IMG/VR virus record: IMGVR_UViG_2778261354_000015
Origin: a virus
Lineage: Duplodnaviria > Heunggongvirae > Uroviricota > Caudoviricetes
Strand: one strand, 5' to 3'
DNA: 32,488 nt
Both the position numbers and the translations under genes were made by a program. Numbering within the stretch: position 1 is the stretch's first letter; each line of letters opens with the position of its first letter. Shown one piece after another: positions 3,906 through 25,442 of the stretch. The notes below the pieces were generated by a model, which had not been told where the DNA came from, ran no database searches, and saw nothing but the letters and a program-made list of their open reading frames with translations.

Positions 3906-4177
3906 GTATTCGTATTGAAATTGGCGAACGTTATGTCGTTACCAGTGACAGCTTTCAGTTTATTCTCCACGAGAAAAAGAGAGCTGAAAGCGGTAAAAAC
4001 GCCGGTCAGGAATGGCTGGCGGTGGTTGGTTATTACCCGAAATTAAGCCAGCTCGTTTCCGGCCTGATGCATCACGATATTCTGACCGGAAGCGCAAAGT
4101 CTTTTGCTGATTTAAACGCGCAGGTTGAGCAACTCAGCAAGCGTTGTTCAGAGGCTTTTGGCTCATATGGCCGTTAA
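3902..4177 (+). CDS. P2 orf83-like hypothetical protein
   Basis: Conserved ORF that overlaps the start of A. P2 synteny. Confidence 0.7.
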   Translation: MSIRIEIGERYVVTSDSFQFILHEKKRAESGKNAGQEWLAVVGYYPKLSQLVSGLMHHDILTGSAKSFADLNAQVEQLSKRCSEAFGSYGR

Positions 4178-6455
4178 AGCCTCCGGGCGTTTTGTCCCTC
4201 CGTCAGCATTTGCCGCAGGCACCGGTAAGACGTTTACCGGTGCTTATGCATGGAACGCGCCACGCGAGGCTGTCGGGCGCGAAAGACCCCTTACACGTGA
4301 CGAGATGCGTCAGGTGCAAGGTGTTTTATCCACGATTAACCGCCTGCCTTACTTTTTGCGCTCGCTGTTTACTTCACGCTATGACTACATCCGGCGCAAT
4401 AAAAGCCCGGTGCACGGGTTTTATTTCCTCACATCCACTTTTCAGCGTCGTTTATGGCCGCGCATTGAGCGTGTGAATCAGCGCCATGAAATGAACACCG
4501 ACGCGTCGTTGCTGTTTCTGGCAGAGCGTGACCACTATGCGCGCCTGCCGGGAATGAATGACAAGGAGCTGAAAAAGTTTGCCGCCCGTATTTCATCGCA
4601 GCTTTTCATGATGTATGAGGAACTCAGCGATGCCTGGGTGGATGCGCATGGCGAAAAAGAATCGCTGTTTACGGATGAGGCGCAGGTTCACCTCTATGGT
4701 CATGTTGCTGGCGCTGCACGTGCTTTCAATATTTCCCCTCTCTACTGGAAAAAATACCGTAAAGGACAGATGACCACGAGGCAGGCATATTCTGCCATTG
4801 CCCGTCTGTTTAACGATGAGTGGTGGACTCATCAGCTTAAAGGCCAGCGTATGCGCTGGCATGAGGCGTTACTGATTGCTGTCGGGGAGGTGAATAAAGA
4901 CCGTTCTCCTTATGCCAGTAAACATGCCATTCGTGATGTGCGTGCACGCCGCCAGGCAAATCTGGAATTTCTTAAATCGTGTGACCTTGAAAACAGGGAA
5001 ACCGGCGAGCGCATCGACCTTATCAGTAAGGTGATGGGCAGTATTTCTAATCCTGAAATTCGCCGGATGGAGCTGATGAACACCATTGCCGGTATTGAGC
5101 GTTACGCCGCCGCAGAGGGTGATGTGGGGATGTTTATCACGCTGACCACGCCGTCAAAGTATCACCCGACACGTCAGGTCGGAAAAGGCGAAAGTAAAAC
5201 CGTCCAGCTTAATCACGGCTGGAATGATGAGGCATTTAATCCAAAGGATGCGCAGCGTTATCTCTGCCGTATCTGGAGCCTGATGCGCACGGCATTCAAG
5301 GATAATGATTTACAGGTCTACGGTTTGCGTGTCGTCGAGCCACACCACGACGGAACGCCGCACTGGCATATGATGCTTTTTTGTAATCCACGCCAGCGTA
5401 ACCAGATTATCGAAATCATGCGTCGCTATGCGCTCAAAGAGGATGGCGACGAAAGAGGAGCCGCGCGAAACCGTTTTCAGGCGAAACACCTTAACCGGGG
5501 CGGTGCTGCGGGGTATATCGCGAAATACATCTCAAAAAATATCGACGGCTATGCACTGGATGGTCAGCTCGATAATGATACCGGCAGACCGCTGAAAGAC
5601 ACTGCCGCGGCTGTTACCGCATGGGCGTCAACGTGGCGCATCCCGCAATTTAAAACGGTTGGTCTGCCGACAATGGGGGCTTACCGTGAACTACGCAAAT
5701 TGCCTCGCGGCGTCAGCATTGCTGATGAGTTTGACGAGCGCGTCGAGGCTGCACGCGCCGCCGCAGACAGTGGTGATTTTGCGTTGTATATCAGCGCGCA
5801 GGGTGGGGCAAATGTCCCGCGCGATTGTCAGACTGTCAGGGTCGCCCGTAGCCCGTCGGATGACGTTAACGAGTATGAGGAAGAAGTCGAGAGAGTGGTC
5901 GGCATTTACGCGCCGCATCTCGGCGCGCGTCATATTCATATCACCAGAACGACGGACTGGCGCATTGTGCCGAAAGTTCCGGTCGTTGAGCCTTTGACTT
6001 TAAAAAGCGGCATCGCCGCGCCTCGGAGTCCTGTCAATAACTGTGGAACGCTCACCGGTGGTGATACTTCGTTACCGGCTCCCACACCTTCTGAGCACGC
6101 CGCAGCAGTGCTTAATCTGGTAGATGACGGTGTTATCGAATGGAATGACCCGGAGGTCGTGAGGGCGCTCAGAGGTGCATTAAAACACGGCCTGAGAAGA
6201 CCAAACCGTCAGCAAAGAAACGGAAGCCCGTTAAAACCGCATGAAATAGCGCCATCGGCCAGACTGACCCGGTCGGAACGAATGCAAATTACCCGTATCC
6301 GCGTTGACCTTGCTCAGAACGGTATCAGGCCTCAGCGATGGGAGATTGAGGCGCTGGCGCGTGGGGCAACCGTGACATACGACGGACAAAAATTCACATA
6401 TCCAGATGCGGATGAGTGGTCGGGGTTTTCAACCACAATAGAGTGGAATCAATGA
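4167..6455 (+). CDS. A: Replication initiation protein A (rolling-circle nickase)
   Basis: About 760 aa, matching P2 gpA. Start set at MAVKASG (4167) rather than the ORF-track start at 4125. Contains the conserved HWHMMLF and GYIAKYISKN motifs of rolling-circle initiators. Confidence 0.93.
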   Translation: MAVKASGRFVPPSAFAAGTGKTFTGAYAWNAPREAVGRERPLTRDEMRQVQGVLSTINRLPYFLRSLFTSRYDYIRRNKSPVHGFYFLTSTFQRRLWPRIERVNQRHEMNTDASLLFLAERDHYARLPGMNDKELKKFAARISSQLFMMYEELSDAWVDAHGEKESLFTDEAQVHLYGHVAGAARAFNISPLYWKKYRKGQMTTRQAYSAIARLFNDEWWTHQLKGQRMRWHEALLIAVGEVNKDRSPYASKHAIRDVRARRQANLEFLKSCDLENRETGERIDLISKVMGSISNPEIRRMELMNTIAGIERYAAAEGDVGMFITLTTPSKYHPTRQVGKGESKTVQLNHGWNDEAFNPKDAQRYLCRIWSLMRTAFKDNDLQVYGLRVVEPHHDGTPHWHMMLFCNPRQRNQIIEIMRRYALKEDGDERGAARNRFQAKHLNRGGAAGYIAKYISKNIDGYALDGQLDNDTGRPLKDTAAAVTAWASTWRIPQFKTVGLPTMGAYRELRKLPRGVSIADEFDERVEAARAAADSGDFALYISAQGGANVPRDCQTVRVARSPSDDVNEYEEEVERVVGIYAPHLGARHIHITRTTDWRIVPKVPVVEPLTLKSGIAAPRSPVNNCGTLTGGDTSLPAPTPSEHAAAVLNLVDDGVIEWNDPEVVRALRGALKHGLRRPNRQQRNGSPLKPHEIAPSARLTRSERMQITRIRVDLAQNGIRPQRWEIEALARGATVTYDGQKFTYPDADEWSGFSTTIEWNQ

Positions 6456-6520
6456 CAAAGGTAAATCACATTAAAAACGTATCTGCTTACTTTAAGAGAT
6501 GATTTTCTCTTTAAAGCATT

Positions 6521-6549
6521 GTATGGTTGCTGGCGATATGGCATATAAT
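6521..6549 (+). promoter_or_regulatory. Candidate sigma70 promoter for cargo gene 1
   Basis: Perfect TATAAT at 6544..6549, with a weak -35 (gtatgg, 6521..6526) at 17-bp spacing. Lies in the AT-rich intergenic region upstream of 6661. Confidence 0.35.
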
Positions 6550-6660
6550 GTAGCAAAAACATGAGCTTGGTAAGAAACGATTCTGTCATAAGGCATAGTT
6601 CTGCCACTCGCTCGGTATTGATGCCATGGACATGGACTCTATTTAAATCAAGGTGCATAT

Positions 6661-7620
6661 ATGAAAATATTTATTAGTTGGTCAGGTTCGGACAGCCTAG
6701 AGATAGCGAAAGTATTACGGGATTGGATCCCTAATGTTATTCAAGTAGCTGAGCCGTACGTATCAGCAGAGGATATTGATAAAGGTACTCGCTGGGCGAC
6801 CGATATATCAAAGGAACTTGATGACTCTTCTTATGGCATTATTTGTCTTACAAAGAGTAATATTAATGCTCCTTGGATAAATTTTGAAGCAGGTGCTTTA
6901 GGTAAAAAAGTTGACAAAAGCCGAGTTAGCCCTTTCTTGTTTAAAATTAAACCATCTGAAGTAACAGGTCCAATTTTACAATTTCAGTCTACTCGCTCGG
7001 ATGATAAAAACGATATTTTGAAGTTGATGTTATCCATAAATAAACAAGCTGGATTTTTGTCTGAAGATCGCTTAACAAAAGCTTTCGAGCAGTGGTGGCC
7101 AAGTTTAGAACATGAGTTAGATAGCATTCCCGATATTAGTCCTGTAGATAAAGATTCAGCAAAACAAGCAAAAGGTAGTTCAAGTTCTGAAATACAAAAC
7201 CTTTCTAAAATTGTTGAAAACTTGCTGGATATTAGCCGAACGAATCACCAGTTATTACGTGATCCAGCATCGCTTTTGCCAGAAGAATATGTTAGTAAAA
7301 TAATAAATAGAAGTGAGCGTAAAGAAAGTACCTTAAGAACCGTAGTCTCTGATTTATCAGTTGCATATCGTTCAGCTATTCGTCTAAAAAGAAGCCTCAT
7401 GAGACATGGTCTTGATGAAGTCTCGATGGACGAATACATTGATTCACTAAATAAAATAATAGATGATTTTGCTAAACCAATCAATTACTTAGAGCGTCGC
7501 TATGGGAAGGGTAGTGCTCATATGTCAGATGCTTTACTCCATCGTTCACTTAGACCACGATCCAGAAACTTAATTGATATGATGGTTGAGGAAGATACAG
7601 AACAGGATGAAATTGTATGA
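6661..7620 (+). CDS. TIR-like domain protein with uncharacterised C-terminal domain (cargo at the P2 tin/old slot); candidate anti-phage defence protein
   Basis: 319 aa. N-terminus MKIFISWSGSD ... ICLTKSNINAPWINFEAG gives a TIR-type beta-A strand and a W-x3-E motif (E76, codon 6886..6888) like the catalytic Glu of TIR NADases. The gene looks AT-rich compared with the backbone. It occupies the slot where P2 carries orf91/tin/old. Confidence 0.65.
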   Translation: MKIFISWSGSDSLEIAKVLRDWIPNVIQVAEPYVSAEDIDKGTRWATDISKELDDSSYGIICLTKSNINAPWINFEAGALGKKVDKSRVSPFLFKIKPSEVTGPILQFQSTRSDDKNDILKLMLSINKQAGFLSEDRLTKAFEQWWPSLEHELDSIPDISPVDKDSAKQAKGSSSSEIQNLSKIVENLLDISRTNHQLLRDPASLLPEEYVSKIINRSERKESTLRTVVSDLSVAYRSAIRLKRSLMRHGLDEVSMDEYIDSLNKIIDDFAKPINYLERRYGKGSAHMSDALLHRSLRPRSRNLIDMMVEEDTEQDEIV

Positions 7621-7864
7621 TCGATTACGATTAACTACAAACAATCTGATATTATAAAATTTATCAACGCTACAGCCGCCATACTACAGCGGCTGTATAG
7701 GGCTCATAATAGGTATTTTATTGCTATCCCTCAAATCCTAAAAATTGCGGATGCTGCATGAATTCGCATGCTTGATTAACTCTAAATAATCCCCTCACTT
7801 ACGGCTTTTGCGCTGGATTCAACTCTGAATGCACCTGTATTAAAACCGACCCATGAAGCGGGCG

Positions 7865-7883
7865 GGCGAGGCGGGGAAAGCAC
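7865..7883. other. cos site (19-nt cohesive end sequence)
   Basis: ggcgaggcggggaaagcac matches the P2 cohesive-end sequence as I remember it. It sits in the expected place, between the right-end cargo and Q. Confidence 0.65.
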
Positions 7884-8053: not shown

Positions 8054-9088
8054 TCAGCCGTTGTCAGTGTCCAGTGAGTAGTTTTTAAAGCGGATGACTT
8101 CCTGGCCGAGCCAGCCGTTTATCTCGCGGATCCTGTCCTGTAGCGGGATAAGCTCATTGCGGACAAAGACCTTTGCCACTTTCTCAATATCGCCCAGCGA
8201 CCCGACGTTCTCCGGCTTGCCGCCCATCAACTGAAAGGGGATGCGGTGCGCGTCCAGCAGGTCAGCGGCGCTGGCTTTTTTGATATTAAAAAAATCGTCC
8301 TTCGTTGCCACTTCACTGAGCGGGATAATTTTAATGCCGTCGGCTTTCCCCTGTGGGGCATAGAGAAACAGGTTTTTAAAGTTGTTGCGGCCTTTCGACT
8401 TCACCATGTTTTCGCGGAGCATTTCGATATCGTTGCGATCCTGCACGGCATCGGTGACGTACATGATGTATCCGGCATGTGCGCCGTTTTCGTAATACTT
8501 GCGGCGGAACAGCGTGGCTGATTCATTCAGCCAGGCAGAGTTAAGGGCGCTGAGATATTCCGGCAGGCCGTACAGCTCCTGATTGATATCCGGCTCCAGC
8601 AGGTGAAACACGGAGCCGGGCGTGAAAGGTGTTGGCTCGTTGAAGGACGGCACCCACCAGTAAATATCTTCTTCCACACCACGGCGGGTATATTTTGCCG
8701 GTGAGGTTTCCAGTCTGATGACCTTACCGGTGGTGCTGTAACGCTTTTCCAGAAACGCATTACCGAACACCAGAAAATCCAGCACAAAGCGGCTGAAATC
8801 CTGCTGGGAAAGCCACGGATGCGGGATAAATGTCGAGGCCAGAATATTACGTTTGACGTAAATCGGGGAGCTGTGATGCACGGCAGCACGCAGGCTTTTT
8901 GCCAGACCGGTAAAGCTGACCGGTGGCTCATACCATCTGCCGTTACTGATGCACTCGACGTAATCCAGAATGTCACGGCGATCGAGTACCGGCACCGGCT
9001 CACCAAAGGTGAATGCCTCCATTTTCGGGGCGCTGGCGGTCATTGTTTTTGCCGCTGGTCGCGGTGTTTTCCCTTTTTTCTTGCTCAT
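8054..9088 (-). CDS. Q: Portal protein (344 aa)
   Basis: Length and sequence match P2 gpQ. Divergent from O and co-oriented with P. Confidence 0.95.
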   Translation of the reverse strand: MSKKKGKTPRPAAKTMTASAPKMEAFTFGEPVPVLDRRDILDYVECISNGRWYEPPVSFTGLAKSLRAAVHHSSPIYVKRNILASTFIPHPWLSQQDFSRFVLDFLVFGNAFLEKRYSTTGKVIRLETSPAKYTRRGVEEDIYWWVPSFNEPTPFTPGSVFHLLEPDINQELYGLPEYLSALNSAWLNESATLFRRKYYENGAHAGYIMYVTDAVQDRNDIEMLRENMVKSKGRNNFKNLFLYAPQGKADGIKIIPLSEVATKDDFFNIKKASAADLLDAHRIPFQLMGGKPENVGSLGDIEKVAKVFVRNELIPLQDRIREINGWLGQEVIRFKNYSLDTDNG

Positions 9089-19720: not shown

Positions 19721-21838
19721 ATGAGCACAAAATTCAGAACCGTTATCACCACTGCCGGTGCAGCAAAGCTGGCAGCGGCAACCGCGCCGGGAGGGCGGAA
19801 GGTCAACATTACCACGATGGCCGTCGGGGATGGCGGTGGTAAATTGCCTGTCCCGGATGCCGGACAGACCGGGCTTATCCACGAAGTCTGGCGACATGCG
19901 CTGAACAAAATCAGCCAGGACAAACGAAACAGTAATTATATTATCGCAGAGCTGGTTATTCCGCCGGAGGTGGGCGGTTTCTGGATGCGTGAGCTTGGCC
20001 TGTACGATGATGCTGGAACGTTAATTGCCGTGGCGAACATGGCCGAAAGTTATAAGCCAGCTCTTGCCGAAGGCTCAGGGCGTTCGCAGACCTGTCGCAT
20101 GGTCATCATCGTCAGCAGTGTGGCCTCAGTGGCGCTGACCATTGACACCACAACGGTGATGGCGACGCAGGATTACGTTGATGACAAAATTGCAGAGCAT
20201 GAACAGTCACGACGTCACCCGGACGCCTCGCTGACCGCAAAAGGTTTTACTCAGTTAAGCAATGCGACCAACAGCACGTCTGAAACACTGGCCGCAACGC
20301 CGAAAGCGGTTAAGGCCGCCTATGACCTGGCTAACGGGAAATACACTGCGCAGGATGCCACCACAGCGCGAAAAGGCCTTGTCCAGCTCAGTAGCGCCAC
20401 CAACAGCACGTCTGAAACGCTCGCCGCAACACCAAAAGCGGTAAAGGCAGCATATGACCTTGCTAACGGGAAATACACTGCACAGGACGCCACCACAGCG
20501 CGAAAAGGTCTTGTCCAGCTCAGTAGCGCCACCAACAGTGATTCTGAAACGCTGGCTGCAACACCAAAAGCGGTGAAGTCTGCCTATGACAATGCTGAAA
20601 AACGTCTTCAGAAAGATCAGAACGGTGCGGATATTCCTGATAAAGGACGCTTCCTGAGTAACATTAATGTTTACAGCAAAGGTGAAGTGGATAAGAAAAA
20701 GGGAATGCGAAAGTATTCGTTTGCAGCCCCTGCAAATGTCGTTGCCGGGAAGTGGTATCCCGTTATCTTTCGCCGTGCTGCCAGCCTTTCAGGAGAAATG
20801 GCATCCCGCGTCGTTATTTCCACTGGTTGTTATAACAGCGATTATGTAATGAATAACTGCGAGTTTAATGGCATGGTTATGCCCGGAGGCTGGACTGATC
20901 GTGGTTCATATGCGGCAGGTTATTTCTGGACGTATCAGACTAATGAGCGTTCAATTCATTCCATTGTTACAAGCCTGAAAGATGATGATGTATGTAGTGT
21001 TTTTTATGTTGAAGCCAGAGCTTTCCCTGTACAAATTCTTGCAGAGGAAGGGCTAACGGTTATTGTTCCGACAGAGGATTATGTCGTCGGTCAGACGACA
21101 TATAAGTGGGGGGCAACTAATCCCGCTACAGAAAGCACGAACGCGCAGGCTATTCTGGATTTTAAAAATGGGCGCGGTTATTACTGCTCACATCCATTTA
21201 TTTCCAGCCTTTCAGGAAATGCTGCAACAGCAACAAAGTTAGCGAACGCAAGAAATATTAATGGTGTCAGATTTGATGGCTCTGCCGATATAAATATTAA
21301 TACACTGGTTTCCAGAAACCGTGTTACTGCATTAGGTGGGAGCGTAAAGGGGACACCAGGTATTCAGATGTATGAGGCATACAACAATGGCTACCCAACA
21401 GCCTATGGTAATGTGCTTCATCTCACTGGTGTAACCGCAGTAGGAGAGGGTGAGTTACTTATTGGCTGGAGTGGAACCAGCGGTGCTCATGCTCCGGCAT
21501 ATATTCGCTCCCGACGAGATACCACAGATGCTAACTGGTCTGGATGGGCGCAACTATATACAACTGCTCATAAACCCTCAGCGGGAGATGTTGGTGCATA
21601 CACCAAAGCTGAGTCAGATTCACGTTATGTGAGAGACATGCGGCTGGGCGGTGCATCTACATATAAACCAGCAAATAATGGTATTACATGGACGCATCAG
21701 GCTCCGTCAGGTTGCGTATATACCGGCATTATTGTTCAGGATACCGGCTCAAACTCTGCCGATAACATTGGTGGCGTATATTACAGACCGGTGCAGAAAT
21801 ACATTAACGGGACATGGTATAACGTGGCGCAGGTATAA
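19721..21838 (+). CDS. H: Tail fiber protein (705 aa) with conserved N-terminus, internal fiber repeats and a divergent, lower-GC distal region
   Basis: N-terminal about 170 aa match P2 gpH. Three tandem copies of a roughly 43-aa fiber repeat follow. The distal part, from about 20640, looks AT-richer and differs from what I remember of P2 H. Confidence 0.9.
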   Translation: MSTKFRTVITTAGAAKLAAATAPGGRKVNITTMAVGDGGGKLPVPDAGQTGLIHEVWRHALNKISQDKRNSNYIIAELVIPPEVGGFWMRELGLYDDAGTLIAVANMAESYKPALAEGSGRSQTCRMVIIVSSVASVALTIDTTTVMATQDYVDDKIAEHEQSRRHPDASLTAKGFTQLSNATNSTSETLAATPKAVKAAYDLANGKYTAQDATTARKGLVQLSSATNSTSETLAATPKAVKAAYDLANGKYTAQDATTARKGLVQLSSATNSDSETLAATPKAVKSAYDNAEKRLQKDQNGADIPDKGRFLSNINVYSKGEVDKKKGMRKYSFAAPANVVAGKWYPVIFRRAASLSGEMASRVVISTGCYNSDYVMNNCEFNGMVMPGGWTDRGSYAAGYFWTYQTNERSIHSIVTSLKDDDVCSVFYVEARAFPVQILAEEGLTVIVPTEDYVVGQTTYKWGATNPATESTNAQAILDFKNGRGYYCSHPFISSLSGNAATATKLANARNINGVRFDGSADININTLVSRNRVTALGGSVKGTPGIQMYEAYNNGYPTAYGNVLHLTGVTAVGEGELLIGWSGTSGAHAPAYIRSRRDTTDANWSGWAQLYTTAHKPSAGDVGAYTKAESDSRYVRDMRLGGASTYKPANNGITWTHQAPSGCVYTGIIVQDTGSNSADNIGGVYYRPVQKYINGTWYNVAQV
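20240..20593 (+). repeat. Tandem 129-bp repeat (about 2.7 copies) inside tail fiber gene H
   Basis: Units start near 20240, 20372 and 20501. Each encodes K/GxxQLSxATNSTSETLAATPKAVKAAYDLANGKYTAQDATTAR, and the third copy is truncated and diverged. Confidence 0.85.
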
Positions 21839-21841
21839 TTT

Positions 21842-22369
21842 ATGCAGCATTTAAAAAATATTACGGCGGGTAATCCAAAAACGGTTGAACAATATCAATT
21901 GACAAAGGACTTTGATGTTGTCTGGTTTTTTTCAGAAGATGGTAAGAACTGGTACGAAGAACAAAAGTATTTTGCTGATGACACGATAAAAATAGCGTAC
22001 GACAAAGATAATATTATCCGCTATGTGGAAAAGGATGTGACAGCTATCAGACCGGATGGATTAAGTGTGGTTGAAGTGGCGGATATTACTGCTAACCGAC
22101 GGGCGGACATTTCAGGGAACTGGATGTTTAAGGATGGCAAAGTGATTAAACGCATTTATACGGCAGAGGAATTGCAGCAGCAGGCAGAAAACCGGAAAGC
22201 TAGACTTCTTGCAGATGCTGAATCCGTGATTTTGCCGCTGGAGCGCGCTGTCAGGTTGAACATGGCAACAGAGGAGGAGCGCACACGGCTGGAGGCTTGG
22301 GAACGCTACAGCGTTGTGGTCAGTCGTGTGGATCCTGCAAATCCTGAATGGCCGGAAATGCCGCAATAA
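21842..22369 (+). CDS. G: Tail fiber assembly chaperone
   Basis: 175 aa, matches P2 gpG. Immediately downstream of H. Confidence 0.92.
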
Positions 22370-22650: not shown

Positions 22651-23586
22651 ATGGCTACTTATGCTTCTTATTTACCAGAATCACAAATTATCACTTTGTG
22701 CAAGGATTTCCCAGCGTTTACTGATCCTGAAAAATTAGATGGATTCATTAATCCAGAACAGTTTGGCGTGTTTTTTCATGAGTGGATTCATTTTCTTCAC
22801 AATATTTCCACAATTAATGGGTTTTCTATTTTTTGCACGCAAAACATCCTGTGGTCTAATTTTCGCTGGGCAATGGACAATCAGGATGTATGTCTTGGTT
22901 CAAATGACATGGATCCAGCACATATCGAATCAAACAAAAATTTTCTCAGTTACATTCGTTCCAATAGGAGTCTGCATAAATGTAACTTACCTTATTATGT
23001 AAAAGTAAACGACTTGTATTTTGAGGATGCAATAATCCATGACATGGAGGTTGCTGACGGTAGTGTTACATGTACATCATTAATAAAGTGTAGAATTTCT
23101 CATTCTGAAAACAAATACGATCTAGATTTAGGCGTGCTTGAAATACTTGAATCCGCAGCTTTTATGCTTGAATGTAAGTGTATTAATGCGATGAATGGCT
23201 TCCCTCAAGAGGCACCCTTTTATCCGTATCATACTATCAAAGGCTTAGCAGCGAAAATTGCTCCGTCATTAAATGATGAAGATATTATTTGTTGTATGTT
23301 AGCTTCTTTGCAATCTAATAACCCTCCCCAAGTATTATTCAATCTACTACATAAATGTGAATTATTACATTCTGATTGTAGGTATGAACATCTAGTGGCG
23401 GAGGTGAAAAAACAATTAAGCGAACAAGATCAAATAATAAGCGAGTCACTTAATCAAATAATTCAAATGATTCCTGTTGATGAACCGATGGGAAACTTTA
23501 TCAAGCTTACTCTTAACAGAATAAGTAACAATTTGAACTATAGAAAGCAAAAACCGTTTTTTGAGTTAGATATAATAAAAAAATAG
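22651..23586 (+). CDS. Uncharacterised cargo protein (311 aa) with HExxH motif; candidate defence component A
   Basis: Long ORF in an AT-rich island with a strong RBS. HEWIH at residues 43..47 (22777..22791) sits in a hydrophobic context like zincin metallopeptidase active sites. No similarity to any P2 backbone protein that I recognise. Confidence 0.6.
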   Translation: MATYASYLPESQIITLCKDFPAFTDPEKLDGFINPEQFGVFFHEWIHFLHNISTINGFSIFCTQNILWSNFRWAMDNQDVCLGSNDMDPAHIESNKNFLSYIRSNRSLHKCNLPYYVKVNDLYFEDAIIHDMEVADGSVTCTSLIKCRISHSENKYDLDLGVLEILESAAFMLECKCINAMNGFPQEAPFYPYHTIKGLAAKIAPSLNDEDIICCMLASLQSNNPPQVLFNLLHKCELLHSDCRYEHLVAEVKKQLSEQDQIISESLNQIIQMIPVDEPMGNFIKLTLNRISNNLNYRKQKPFFELDIIKK

Positions 23587-23603
23587 CAGAAAAAACTGAG
23601 TTT

Positions 23604-23993
23604 ATGAATGAAGTAATACAGAAATTCGGTGGTTGCACTATCATCCAGGTAAGACATGGAGATGATAATGAACCACAGCGTGATATTATGTATGACTTTT
23701 GCTTACCTGAAAATAATGATTCAATTTTATTTGGTTCGAAAATGCTACGCGCTTGTTTTCACTTTATATTTATTCACTTTAAACTTTCTGGTGAAATCAT
23801 GAAGACAGAAGAATTAAATATTTCGCCGCGTAATAAATGCCCATTTTATACTGTTTGCTGTGCATCAATTCGAGCTAATAATAGTAATATCTGCGCTGAA
23901 TCCCCTTGGAAATCAATGTCTATTGATGACAACAAAGGTTGTTATTATGCAGCAGCGATTAAAGCTACTAACCCACCAGTTTTGCCGGATTAA
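23604..23993 (+). CDS. Small cysteine-rich cargo protein (129 aa); candidate defence component B
   Basis: ORF 17 nt downstream of the previous gene on the same strand. Eight Cys residues, including a CC pair. The RBS is weak, so the start is uncertain. Same AT-rich island. Confidence 0.45.
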   Translation: MNEVIQKFGGCTIIQVRHGDDNEPQRDIMYDFCLPENNDSILFGSKMLRACFHFIFIHFKLSGEIMKTEELNISPRNKCPFYTVCCASIRANNSNICAESPWKSMSIDDNKGCYYAAAIKATNPPVLPD

Positions 23994-24251: not shown

Positions 24252-25442
24252 ATGAGTGACTATCATCACGGCGTGCAGGTGCTGGAGATTAACGACGGCA
24301 CACGCGTCATTTCCACCGTATCCACTGCCATTGTCGGCATGGTCTGCACGGCCAGCGATGCGGATGCGGAAACCTTCCCCCTCAATAAACCTGTGCTGAT
24401 TACCAATGTGCAGAGTGCAATTGCAAAGGCCGGTAAAAAAGGCACGCTGGCGGCATCGTTGCAGGCCATCGCTGACCAGTCAAAACCGGTCACCGTTGTC
24501 GTGCGCGTGGAAGACGGCACCGGTGATGACGAGGAAACGAAACTCGCGCAGACCGTTTCCAATATTATCGGCACCACTGACGAAAACGGTCAGTACACCG
24601 GACTGAAAGCCCTGCTGGCGGCGGAGTCGGTAACCGGTGTTAAACCGCGTATTCTTGGTGTGCCGGGGCTGGATACCAAAGAGGTGGCTGTTGCACTGGC
24701 ATCAGTCTGTCAGAAGCTGCGCGCTTTCGGATATATCAGCGCATGGGGCTGTAAGACCATTTCCGAGGTGAAAGCCTACCGCCAGAATTTCAGCCAGCGT
24801 GAGCTGATGGTCATCTGGCCGGATTTCCTCGCATGGGATACGGTCACCAGTACCACCGCCACCGCGCATGCCACCGCCCGTGCGCTGGGTCTGCGCGCTA
24901 AAATCGACCAGGAGCAGGGCTGGCATAAAACGCTGTCCAACGTTGGGGTAAACGGTGTTACCGGCATCAGCGCATCTGTATTCTGGGATTTGCAGGAGTC
25001 CGGCACCGATGCTGACCTGCTTAACGAGTCAGGCGTCACTACGCTGATTCGCCGTGACGGTTTCCGCTTCTGGGGTAACCGTACCTGCTCTGATGACCCG
25101 CTGTTCCTCTTTGAAAACTACACCCGCACCGCGCAGGTGCTGGCCGACACGATGGCTGAGGCGCACATGTGGGCGGTGGACAAGCCCATCACCGCAACGC
25201 TGATTCGCGACATCGTTGACGGCATCAATGCCAAATTCCGTGAGCTGAAAACAAACGGCTATATCGTGGATGCGACCTGCTGGTTCAGCGAAGAATCCAA
25301 CGATGCGGAAACCCTCAAGGCCGGAAAACTGTATATCGACTACGACTATACCCCGGTGCCTCCTCTCGAAAACCTGACCCTGCGCCAGCGTATTACCGAT
25401 AAATACCTGGCAAATCTGGTCACCTCGGTTAACAGCAATTAA
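24252..25442 (+). CDS. FI: Tail sheath protein
   Basis: 396 aa, matches P2 gpFI. Confidence 0.95.
   Translation: MSDYHHGVQVLEINDGTRVISTVSTAIVGMVCTASDADAETFPLNKPVLITNVQSAIAKAGKKGTLAASLQAIADQSKPVTVVVRVEDGTGDDEETKLAQTVSNIIGTTDENGQYTGLKALLAAESVTGVKPRILGVPGLDTKEVAVALASVCQKLRAFGYISAWGCKTISEVKAYRQNFSQRELMVIWPDFLAWDTVTSTTATAHATARALGLRAKIDQEQGWHKTLSNVGVNGVTGISASVFWDLQESGTDADLLNESGVTTLIRRDGFRFWGNRTCSDDPLFLFENYTRTAQVLADTMAEAHMWAVDKPITATLIRDIVDGINAKFRELKTNGYIVDATCWFSEESNDAETLKAGKLYIDYDYTPVPPLENLTLRQRITDKYLANLVTSVNSN

What the first reader, a model, noticed from the sequence alone, without database searches (positions are those of the whole stretch)
6456..7864. Single-gene TIR-like cargo at the P2 tin/old slot, with a putative catalytic Glu and an unknown C-terminal domain
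The slot between A and cos, which holds orf91/tin/old in P2, here holds one AT-rich gene (6661..7620). Its N-terminal 135 residues or so read like a TIR domain: MKIFISWSGSD as strand beta-A, and ICLTKSNINAPWINFEAG giving the W-x3-E motif (E76) found at TIR NADase catalytic sites. The C-terminal 180 residues or so are helical and unrecognised, possibly a sensor or oligomerisation domain. A stand-alone TIR effector at a prophage defence hotspot suggests an NAD-depleting abortive-infection function.
Basis: partly seen in the sequence, partly recalled or inferred. Interest (0 to 1): 0.75.

Follow-up and report, generated by a model that had tools for sequence, protein, structure and literature searches.

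The report
Lone TIR defence gene in P2 prophage
A P2-like E. coli prophage carries, next to its packaging site, one gene for a TIR-domain protein; its closest studied relative sits in a published three-gene anti-phage cassette, but here, as in most relatives, the gene stands alone and probably works by itself.

Summary
One AT-rich ORF (6661..7620, 319 aa) fills the slot between replication gene A and the P2 cos site.

- **TIR domain.** Residues 1-154 are a TIR domain (Pfam TIR_2 above cutoff; AlphaFold model matches PdTIR, AbTIR, SpbK and SPARTA TIRs). W72-x3-E76 is invariant and aligns with the W-x3-E segment of AbTir.
- **C-terminus.** It is helical, has no family match, and carries a second near-invariant motif (residues 186-202).
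- **Known relative.** The protein is 78% identical to the TIR protein of phage P2_AC1. Rousset et al. 2022 showed that its cassette (2TM + 1TM + TIR) blocks lambda, LF82_P8 and P2. It hits PADLOC's model for that TIR component at 1e-117.
- **Missing partners.** The two membrane-protein genes are absent from the whole window.
- **Lone state is usual.** The lone state appears ancestral and is under purifying selection (dN/dS 0.12; 0.01 in the TIR domain). It recurs in Klebsiella P2-like prophages, on ~4.7-4.9 kb plasmids and in defence islands. The membrane pair also occurs without TIR.

Most likely it is a self-contained TIR NADase that senses infection and depletes NAD+, as SpbK does; this is inferred, not shown. 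I rate it a new variant of a known kind, of moderate interest.

The parts
4125..6455 (+). Left flank: P2 replication gene A (gpA)
   Evidence: PF05840 Phage_GPA, E=2.8e-123
6456..6660 (+). Upstream non-coding region (205 bp). The last ~113 bp (6548..6660) travel with the gene: they are homologous to the region upstream of the TIR gene in P2_AC1. The whole stretch, including the end of gene A, is shared with the Klebsiella lone-TIR loci.
   Evidence: DNA alignments. No convincing sigma-70 promoter: promoter-like sites are no more frequent than in shuffles. A TATAAT at 6544..6549 is not conserved in relatives. The antisense 69-aa ORF 6449..6658 is broken by stops in relatives.
6661..7620 (+). 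The TIR gene (319 aa plus stop), the only gene in the gpA-cos slot
   Evidence: PADLOC PDLC03016 'TIR-TM' 1e-117. phrog_13899 2e-99. An identical protein is in NCBI as an E. coli TIR domain-containing protein.
6661..7122 (+). TIR domain, residues 1-154
6886..6888 (+). Codon of E76 (gaa), the candidate catalytic glutamate in W72-I-N-F-E76
   Evidence: Invariant in 24 and in 76 relatives. Aligns with the Glu of WTNYE (AbTir) and WTEYE (BtTir).
7123..7185 (+). Variable, probably disordered linker, residues 155-175
   Evidence: pLDDT below 50 at 162-173. Poorly conserved columns.
7186..7305 (+). Conserved helix region, residues 176-215, holding the second family motif E186-x2-L189-x3-R193-x-N195-x3-L199-R200-x-P202
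   Evidence: Near-invariant in 82 family members from many phyla, and not part of the patterns used to find them.
7309..7503 (+). Two long antiparallel helices, residues 217-249 and 253-281: the fast-evolving C-terminal hairpin
7671..7697 (+). Hairpin 51 nt after the stop codon, conserved in P2_AC1; possible terminator or 3' end of the module
   Evidence: 9-bp stem. The same hairpin in AC1 was flagged as terminator-like. Alignment.
7621..7829 (+). Downstream non-coding part of the cargo, homologous to P2_AC1 up to about 7857
7865..7883 (+). P2-type cos cohesive-end sequence (right boundary of the slot)
   Evidence: Exact 19-mer, 0 expected by chance. Sequence as quoted for P2-related phages in PMC3931495.
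8054..9088 (-). Right flank: portal gene gpQ
   Evidence: PF04860

Best explanation
The gene is a self-contained, single-gene anti-phage module carried as cargo by a P2-like prophage.

Proposed mechanism:
- The N-terminal TIR domain is an NAD+-cleaving enzyme that uses E76.
- In uninfected lysogens the protein is inactive.
- A component of an infecting phage is recognised by the fast-evolving C-terminal helical hairpin.
- Recognition brings TIR domains together, and NAD+ is consumed.
- The infected cell stops supporting phage growth (abortive infection), which protects the lysogen population and the prophage.

The strongly conserved helix motif at residues 186-202 is proposed to couple sensing to TIR activation.

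Shown here: the TIR fold, the conserved Glu, homology to a validated defence-cassette component, absence of partner genes, purifying selection, and a lone state that is usual in the sampled relatives and appears ancestral.

Inferred: NADase activity, the trigger, oligomerisation, and the abortive-infection outcome.
For: 1. **TIR domain with catalytic-site signature.**
2. **Homology to a validated cassette.** The protein is 78% identical to the TIR protein of P2_AC1 and hits PADLOC's model as strongly as AC1's own protein (1e-117 against 2.7e-118). That cassette protects against lambda, LF82_P8 and P2 (PMC9122126).
3. **No partner genes here.** tblastn and profile HMMs of the 2TM and 1TM families find nothing in the 32.5-kb window. 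The protein has no predicted TM helix.
4. **The lone gene is maintained.** Window versus the Klebsiella lone allele gives dS 0.62 and dN/dS 0.12, with 0.01 in the TIR domain. The two share the same upstream junction, so the lone state predates their divergence.
5. **The lone state appears ancestral.**
   - In a neighbour-joining tree, (window, Klebsiella) plus AC1 form a clade with 100% bootstrap.
   - All successive outgroups with known context are lone genes.
6. **Sole cargo of complete or near-complete small mobilisable plasmids.**
   - A 4,747-bp Serratia plasmid carries only mob genes, rep, NadS and the TIR gene.
   - Klebsiella-type plasmids of about 4.8 kb are listed in 365 index blocks.
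7. **The AC1 membrane pair is separable.**
   - It occurs without TIR in lambdoid prophages.
   - Its family is small, 49 clusters against more than 2,300 for TIR.
   - In AC1 a strong intrinsic terminator (dG -17.8 kcal/mol, z -5.15) separates it from the TIR gene.
8. **Precedent.** SpbK is a single-gene, element-borne TIR NADase switched on by a phage portal protein (PMC11984713). Single-protein E. coli TIR systems need their TIR active-site residues (PMC11350192).
Against: - No experiment exists on the lone gene. Rousset et al. cloned the three AC1 genes together and did not report single-gene dissection.
- In every place read (25 contigs read, 8 places shown), the AC1-type allele sits with the membrane pair and a further 305-aa membrane protein, including one locus outside a P2 prophage. 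This hints at functional linkage.
- Small membrane-protein genes are mildly enriched next to family members: 14/79 against 102/1071 background genes, odds ratio 2.0, p=0.03. Most of these lie upstream in the ~290-aa subfamily.
- No recognisable promoter was found.
- The inter-domain geometry of the model is uncertain (pTM 0.49).
- Part of the evidence for invariance of W72-E76 is circular, because the 80 genome loci were found with a pattern containing that motif.
Confidence: 0.55

Rival explanations
1. Signal-generating TIR that needs an effector. As Rousset et al. proposed for P2_AC1, the TIR protein makes a nucleotide messenger from NAD+ that activates membrane proteins. In this window the effector is missing, so the gene either works with an unlinked host-encoded effector or is inert on its own.
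For: - The authors' hypothesis for AC1 (PMC9122126).
- The AC1 allele is always found with the membrane-protein genes, including in a non-P2 context.
- Small membrane-protein neighbours are mildly enriched across the family.
- Thoeris sets the precedent of TIR as a signal producer (known family behaviour; discussed in PMC11350192).
Against: - No 2TM or 1TM homologue exists in the window.
- No conserved neighbour family appears in 80 diverse loci.
- The gene is the sole cargo on ~4.7-4.9 kb plasmids.
- The lone alleles are under strong purifying selection.
- The lone state appears ancestral.
- A terminator separates the membrane pair from TIR in AC1, and the pair exists without TIR.
Confidence: 0.2
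2. Inactive orphan: a leftover of a larger cassette that no longer does anything.
For: Two of the three genes that define the published system are absent. No clear promoter was found. This exact allele is rare: one contig in the large protein index, and none of 5,426 complete E. coli genomes has a match closer than the ~80%-identical AC1-type allele.
Against: The reading frame is intact. dN/dS is 0.12 overall and 0.01 in the TIR domain across dS 0.62 between two lone alleles. All invariant family residues are retained. The lone state appears ancestral rather than derived.
Confidence: 0.07
3. A role other than protecting the host from phages. Examples are plasmid or prophage maintenance (an addiction-like toxin), competition between mobile elements, or interference with another immune pathway that uses NAD-derived signals.
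For: On small plasmids the gene is translationally coupled to rep and sits next to RelE-type toxin-antitoxin genes. It is always on, or next to, mobile elements.
Against: The AC1 lysogen and the cloned cassette do protect against phages. Several relatives sit among restriction, GmrSD/HEPN or ThsB/SLATT genes. No antitoxin-like partner is conserved.
Confidence: 0.12

Closest known systems
TIR component of the '2TM-1TM-TIR' system of Escherichia phage P2_AC1 (Rousset et al. 2022; PADLOC models 2TM-TIR, 1TM-TIR, TIR-TM)
   Same: - Same protein family: 78% amino-acid identity, and a PADLOC TIR-TM hit at 1e-117.
- Same genomic slot, gpA to cos/gpQ of a P2-like phage.
- The same ~113 bp upstream and ~240 bp downstream non-coding DNA, including the downstream hairpin.
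   Different: - The 2TM and 1TM genes, and AC1's further 305-aa membrane protein, are absent from the whole window.
- The last ~100 residues are strongly diverged (dN/dS 0.72 against AC1).
- Defence was shown only for the three AC1 genes cloned together.
SpbK of Bacillus subtilis ICEBs1 (single-gene TIR NADase activated by the SPbeta portal protein YonE)
   Same: - One gene on a mobile element.
- A TIR domain with a conserved catalytic Glu, plus a non-TIR domain joined by a linker.
- This is the best model for how the window gene probably works (PMC11984713).
   Different: - No detectable sequence homology beyond the fold (16% identity).
- The domain order is reversed: in SpbK the sensor is N-terminal and the TIR C-terminal.
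- The trigger and the NADase activity of the window protein are untested.
Single-protein E. coli TIR systems TIR-V, TIR-VI, TIR-IX (Wang et al. 2024)
   Same: Single TIR proteins of E. coli that protect against phages and depend on TIR active-site residues. Their triggers include portal and tail-fibre proteins (PMC11350192).
   Different: I could not establish whether any of them belongs to this family, because the accession list is in a supplement that is not held.
Thoeris (ThsB TIR sensor plus ThsA effector)
   Same: A bacterial TIR protein used in anti-phage defence.
   Different: There is no ThsB_TIR (PF08937) match, and no ThsA-type effector in the slot, which holds a single gene.
P2 old / tin (canonical cargo of this slot)
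   Same: The same hotspot between gpA and cos. Its genes exclude other phages (PMC9122126).
   Different: The proteins are unrelated. The window gene is a TIR protein with no Pfam, PADLOC or NCBIfam match other than TIR families.

Membership tests
TIR domain superfamily (Pfam TIR_2, PF13676) | Profile match above the curated cutoff | tested here: met
   34.8 bits against a cutoff of 28, residues 3-110
TIR domain superfamily (Pfam TIR_2, PF13676) | Flavodoxin-like alternating strand/helix TIR fold | tested here: met
TIR NADases | Conserved catalytic glutamate in a W-x3-E context | tested here: met
   E76 and W72 are invariant in 76 relatives and align with the W and E of the WTNYE / WTEYE segments of AbTir and BtTir. 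That this Glu is the catalytic residue in AbTir is my recollection of the literature, not a tool result.
TIR NADases | NAD+ cleavage activity | not testable with these tools
   Needs an enzyme assay or NAD+ measurement in cells.
2TM-1TM-TIR system (Rousset 2022; PADLOC/DefenseFinder definition) | TIR component matching the system's TIR model | tested here: met
   PDLC03016, 1e-117, residues 1-287 of 319. AC1's own TIR scores 2.7e-118.
2TM-1TM-TIR system (Rousset 2022; PADLOC/DefenseFinder definition) | Adjacent 2TM protein gene | tested here: not met
   No tblastn hit (best E 1.5) and no profile hit (best E 0.098) anywhere in the window. Only 205 bp separate gpA from the TIR gene.
2TM-1TM-TIR system (Rousset 2022; PADLOC/DefenseFinder definition) | Adjacent 1TM protein gene | tested here: not met
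   No tblastn hit (best E 1.7) and no hit with a 47-sequence profile (best E 0.55) in the window.
2TM-1TM-TIR system (Rousset 2022; PADLOC/DefenseFinder definition) | Location in the gpA-gpQ hotspot of a P2-like phage | tested here: met
2TM-1TM-TIR system (Rousset 2022; PADLOC/DefenseFinder definition) | Protection against phages | not testable with these tools
   Shown only for the AC1 lysogen and the three cloned AC1 genes.
Thoeris | ThsB-type TIR (PF08937) with an adjacent ThsA effector (SIR2 or Macro with SLOG) | tested here: not met
   Only TIR_2 matched. The slot holds one gene.
Single-gene, element-borne TIR abortive-infection proteins (SpbK-like) | One gene, on a mobile element, TIR plus a non-TIR domain, no partner gene | tested here: met
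   The same lone arrangement recurs in Klebsiella prophages, small plasmids and islands.
Single-gene, element-borne TIR abortive-infection proteins (SpbK-like) | Sequence homology to SpbK | tested here: not met
Single-gene, element-borne TIR abortive-infection proteins (SpbK-like) | Activation by a phage protein and NAD+ depletion | not testable with these tools
   Needs infection assays, escape mutants and NAD+ measurements.

The most novel reading that the evidence does not exclude
The published three-gene '2TM-1TM-TIR' system may really be two autonomous modules that happen to sit side by side in phage P2_AC1. The TIR protein family would then be a very widespread single-gene sensor-plus-effector immune protein. 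Its parts are a TIR domain, an invariant helix motif at residues 186-202, and a swappable C-terminal domain. The family has more than 2,300 protein clusters in many bacterial phyla and in Methanosarcina. On my understanding that current defence-annotation tools demand all three genes before calling the system (not checked here), they would miss almost every copy, including this one.
Probability: 0.4. Interest if true: 0.6.

Novelty: new variant of a known kind. Interest (0 to 1): 0.45.

Why it matters
The only experimentally tested relative was described as a three-gene system in which TIR signals to membrane proteins. This window, together with the relatives found here, shows three things:
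- The TIR gene normally travels alone.
- The lone gene is kept by selection.
- The membrane pair has an independent life of its own.

If the lone gene protects on its own, the definition of that system in defence databases would need revising, and a large, phylogenetically broad family of currently 'invisible' single-gene TIR immune proteins would gain a function. It would also give a compact 319-aa model for how a TIR enzyme is switched on by a phage cue through a small helical domain. The conserved motif at 186-202 would be an obvious target for mutagenesis.

Tried and rejected
- **Partner genes in the window.** tblastn with the AC1 2TM, 1TM and 305-aa proteins, and profile HMMs against the six-frame translation, found nothing.
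- **Conserved partner family.** Around 80 diverse family loci, phmmer, profile HMMs and all-against-all BLAST of neighbours found no shared family. There is only a mild excess of unrelated small membrane proteins.
- **C-terminal domain fused to other effectors.** phmmer of residues 176-319 against 1.84 billion representatives gave only 7 hits and no informative fusions.
- **Solved structures by sequence.** Nothing was significant. The AbTir and BtTir hits are weak (E about 1) and useful only for placing the W-x3-E motif.
- **Fold of the C-terminus.** Only generic helical hairpins matched.
- **Promoter.** The consensus scan is no better than shuffles. The TATAAT at 6544..6549 is not conserved in Klebsiella or AC1, so I make no promoter claim.
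- **Antisense 69-aa ORF 6449..6658.** It is broken by stops in relatives and has no PADLOC match, so I reject it as a gene.
- **Was this family among the 32 E. coli TIR systems tested by Wang et al. 2024?** The supplement with accessions is not held, so this is undetermined.
- **Host-targeting virulence TIR (TcpC/BtpA type).** I rejected this as the main reading because the family is spread through environmental bacteria and an archaeon and sits in phage, plasmid and defence contexts.

Full report
**What is there.** The window is a P2-like prophage. An identical TIR protein and matching gene order occur on contig NJZR01000016.1 of E. coli assembly GCA_002461255.1. Between replication gene A (4125..6455; PF05840, E=2.8e-123) and the portal gene Q (8054..9088, minus strand; PF04860) lies one ORF, 6661..7620, 319 aa. 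GC falls to 0.35-0.38 there, against about 0.52-0.57 in the flanks. The 19-nt cohesive end of P2-related phages is at 7865..7883 (sequence quoted in PMC3931495). Similarity to P2-type phages resumes at about 7830. This is the hotspot that holds old and tin in P2 (PMC9122126).

**The protein.**
- Pfam TIR_2 matches residues 3-110 above its curated cutoff.
- An AlphaFold2 model built on 76 relatives (mean pLDDT 77.5) gives a strand/helix domain at 1-154, a low-confidence linker (162-173 below 50), then helices 176-198, 217-249 and 253-281.
- W72 and E76 are invariant in alignments of 24 and 76 relatives. In weak but clear alignments they fall on the W and E of the WTNYE / WTEYE segments of AbTir and BtTir. 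That this Glu is the catalytic residue of AbTir is my recollection of the literature, not a tool result.
- The same invariance in the 80 genome loci is circular, because those loci were retrieved with a pattern that contains the motif.
- A second motif, E186-x2-L-x3-R193-x-N195-x3-L-R200-x-P202, is nearly invariant in all 82 sequences and was not used for retrieval. It marks a functionally important helix that no database family describes.
- The C-terminal hairpin matches only generic helical hairpins. Searched alone, it finds almost nothing outside its own family.

**It is not an unknown family.**
- PADLOC's model 'TIR-TM' matches at 1e-117 and phrog_13899 at 2e-99.
- The DNA from 6548 to 7857 is 80% identical to Escherichia phage P2_AC1 and to 14 of 5,426 complete E. 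coli genomes. The proteins are 78% identical.
- In P2_AC1 the TIR gene is preceded by genes for a 126-aa and a 185-aa membrane protein, which match PADLOC's '2TM-TIR' and '1TM-TIR' models.
- Rousset et al. 2022 showed that the AC1 lysogen, and the three cloned genes, protect E. coli C against lambda, LF82_P8 and P2. They suggested that the TIR protein makes a nucleotide messenger for the membrane proteins. No single-gene dissection is reported.

**The partners are missing here, and that is the normal state.** Neither tblastn nor profile HMMs find the 2TM or 1TM proteins anywhere in the window. The TIR protein has no hydrophobic segment. The lone arrangement recurs in these places:
- Klebsiella P2-like prophages: 86% identity, 24 contigs carrying it read (6 places shown), same slot.
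- Mobilisable plasmids of about 4.8 kb, where the TIR gene overlaps the end of rep.
- A complete 4,747-bp Serratia plasmid whose only cargo is the TIR gene.
- A Serratia chromosomal islet.
- The end of another enterobacterial prophage.
- A Proteus prophage moron next to GmrSD/HEPN genes.
- A Providencia island next to type I restriction genes.
- A plasmid-like contig next to SLATT and ThsB-TIR genes.

The family is large: 2,313 protein clusters at E<=1e-3, and 269 of 283 pattern-matching stretches in species-representative genomes were confirmed as relatives. These span many phyla, including Methanosarcina. None of the 80 loci kept has a detectable homologue of the AC1 membrane proteins, and no neighbour family is conserved.

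**Is the lone gene alive?** Window and Klebsiella alleles differ by dS 0.62 but dN/dS is 0.12, with 0.01 in the TIR domain, 0.12 in residues 151-215 and 0.35 in the C-terminal hairpin. Both share the same upstream junction. The Klebsiella locus even keeps a remnant of an E. coli-type gene A end in front of it. The lone state therefore predates their divergence and has been kept under selection. In a neighbour-joining tree, (window, Klebsiella) and AC1 form a clade with 100% bootstrap. The next branches are all lone genes: P0005 on a small plasmid, then P0011, P0012, P0009, P0016 and P0021. By parsimony the membrane-pair association is a novelty of the AC1 lineage, not something the window has lost.

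**The membrane pair is separable too.**
- Its family is small (49 clusters) and, apart from one partial protein attributed to Streptomyces, the named sources are all Enterobacterales.
- Homologous 2TM+1TM pairs sit in lambdoid prophages of E. coli and Klebsiella with no TIR gene within 4 kb.
- In AC1 a 12-bp stem followed by a U-run (dG -17.8 kcal/mol, z -5.15) directly follows the 1TM stop codon. It lies ahead of the 113-bp upstream block that the TIR gene shares with the window.

**Evidence pulling the other way.**
- In every place read (25 contigs, 8 places shown), the exact AC1 allele sits with the membrane pair and a further 305-aa membrane protein, including one locus next to a SIR2 gene outside a P2 prophage.
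- Across the family, small membrane-protein genes are mildly enriched as same-strand neighbours (14/79 against 102/1071; odds ratio 2.0, p=0.03). Most lie upstream in the ~290-aa subfamily to which the window protein belongs.
- A facultative partnership between this TIR family and membrane proteins therefore cannot be dismissed.

**Most likely mechanism.** I favour a self-contained sensor-effector:
- The TIR domain cleaves NAD+ through E76.
- The fast-evolving hairpin (dN/dS up to 0.72 between alleles; unrelated sequence in a ~340-aa subfamily) recognises a phage component.
- Recognition drives TIR self-association and NAD+ loss, aborting the infection.

This mirrors SpbK, a single-gene TIR NADase of ICEBs1 activated by the SPbeta portal protein (PMC11984713). 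It also mirrors single-protein E. coli TIR systems that need their active-site residues (PMC11350192). The steps from 'TIR fold with conserved Glu' onwards are inference. My confidence is about 0.55. The rivals are a signal-producing TIR that needs an unlinked effector (0.2), a role in element maintenance or competition (0.12), and an inert orphan (0.07).

**Classification.** The gene is a member of the TIR superfamily and a homologue of the TIR component of the 2TM-1TM-TIR system. It fails two of that system's three defining gene requirements, so it should not be filed as that system. It works most like SpbK-type single-gene TIR defence proteins, without being their sequence homologue. I rate it a new variant of a known kind and moderately interesting. 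Its main value is that it makes the modularity of a published system, and the function of a very large unassigned TIR family, directly testable.

Noticed in passing
window 22651..23993: A second AT-rich island (GC 0.31-0.35) lies between the tail-fibre assembly gene (21842..22369) and the next late gene at 24252. By position this would be the P2 Z/fun slot; that name is from memory. It holds two ORFs of 311 and 129 aa that match positions 1-311 and 319-440 of a single 441-position family, phrog_15354. It therefore looks like one gene split by a stop or frameshift near 23586-23604. The first ORF contains an HExxH motif (HEWIH). There are no Pfam or PADLOC hits.
   Followed up: partly
L099 3604-4579; L100 1162-2137; L101 and L102 3594-4573: Homologues of the P2_AC1 2TM+1TM membrane-protein pair (50-62% and 42-53% identity) occur as a two-gene unit in lambdoid prophages of E. 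coli and Klebsiella. They sit near the lysis and terminase genes, with no TIR gene within 4 kb. This may be an independent, uncharacterised two-gene module.
   Followed up: partly
L001 6817-7734; L109-L116 4702-5619: The AC1-type cassette always carries a further 305-aa predicted membrane protein downstream of the TIR gene, with no PADLOC match. The 2TM-1TM-TIR-305aa genes also appear in one non-P2 context, next to a SIR2_2 gene (L111).
   Followed up: partly
L083 about 5740-5800: The Klebsiella lone-TIR locus keeps, about 200 bp downstream of its own gene A, a remnant of the 3' end of an E. coli-type gene A fused to the same junction as in the window. This is a footprint of recombination that moved the TIR module between P2-like phages of different hosts.
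   Followed up: partly
L090-L092, L117, L103 (NZ_CP091124.1): Family members (48-69% identical) are the only cargo of mobilisable plasmids of about 4.7-4.9 kb (MobC/relaxase, RelE-type toxin-antitoxin or NadS, Rep). The TIR start codon overlaps the rep stop codon. One such protein is listed in 365 blocks of the contig index, so these plasmids are common.
   Followed up: partly
window 6449..6658 (minus strand): A 69-aa antisense ORF covers the whole intergenic region upstream of the TIR gene. It is interrupted by stops in the homologous Klebsiella and AC1 DNA and has no PADLOC match, so it is probably not a gene.
   Followed up: yes
window 19721..21838: The tail-fibre gene contains near-identical tandem copies of a ~45-aa segment (…SATNSTSETLAATPKAVKAAYDLANGKYTAQDATTARKGLVQLS…).
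   Followed up: no
JQ182729.1 (phage mEp390) 33763-34218: The lambdoid phage mEp390 encodes a protein 42% identical to the TIR domain (residues 1-151) of the window protein. It is annotated as hypothetical.
   Followed up: no
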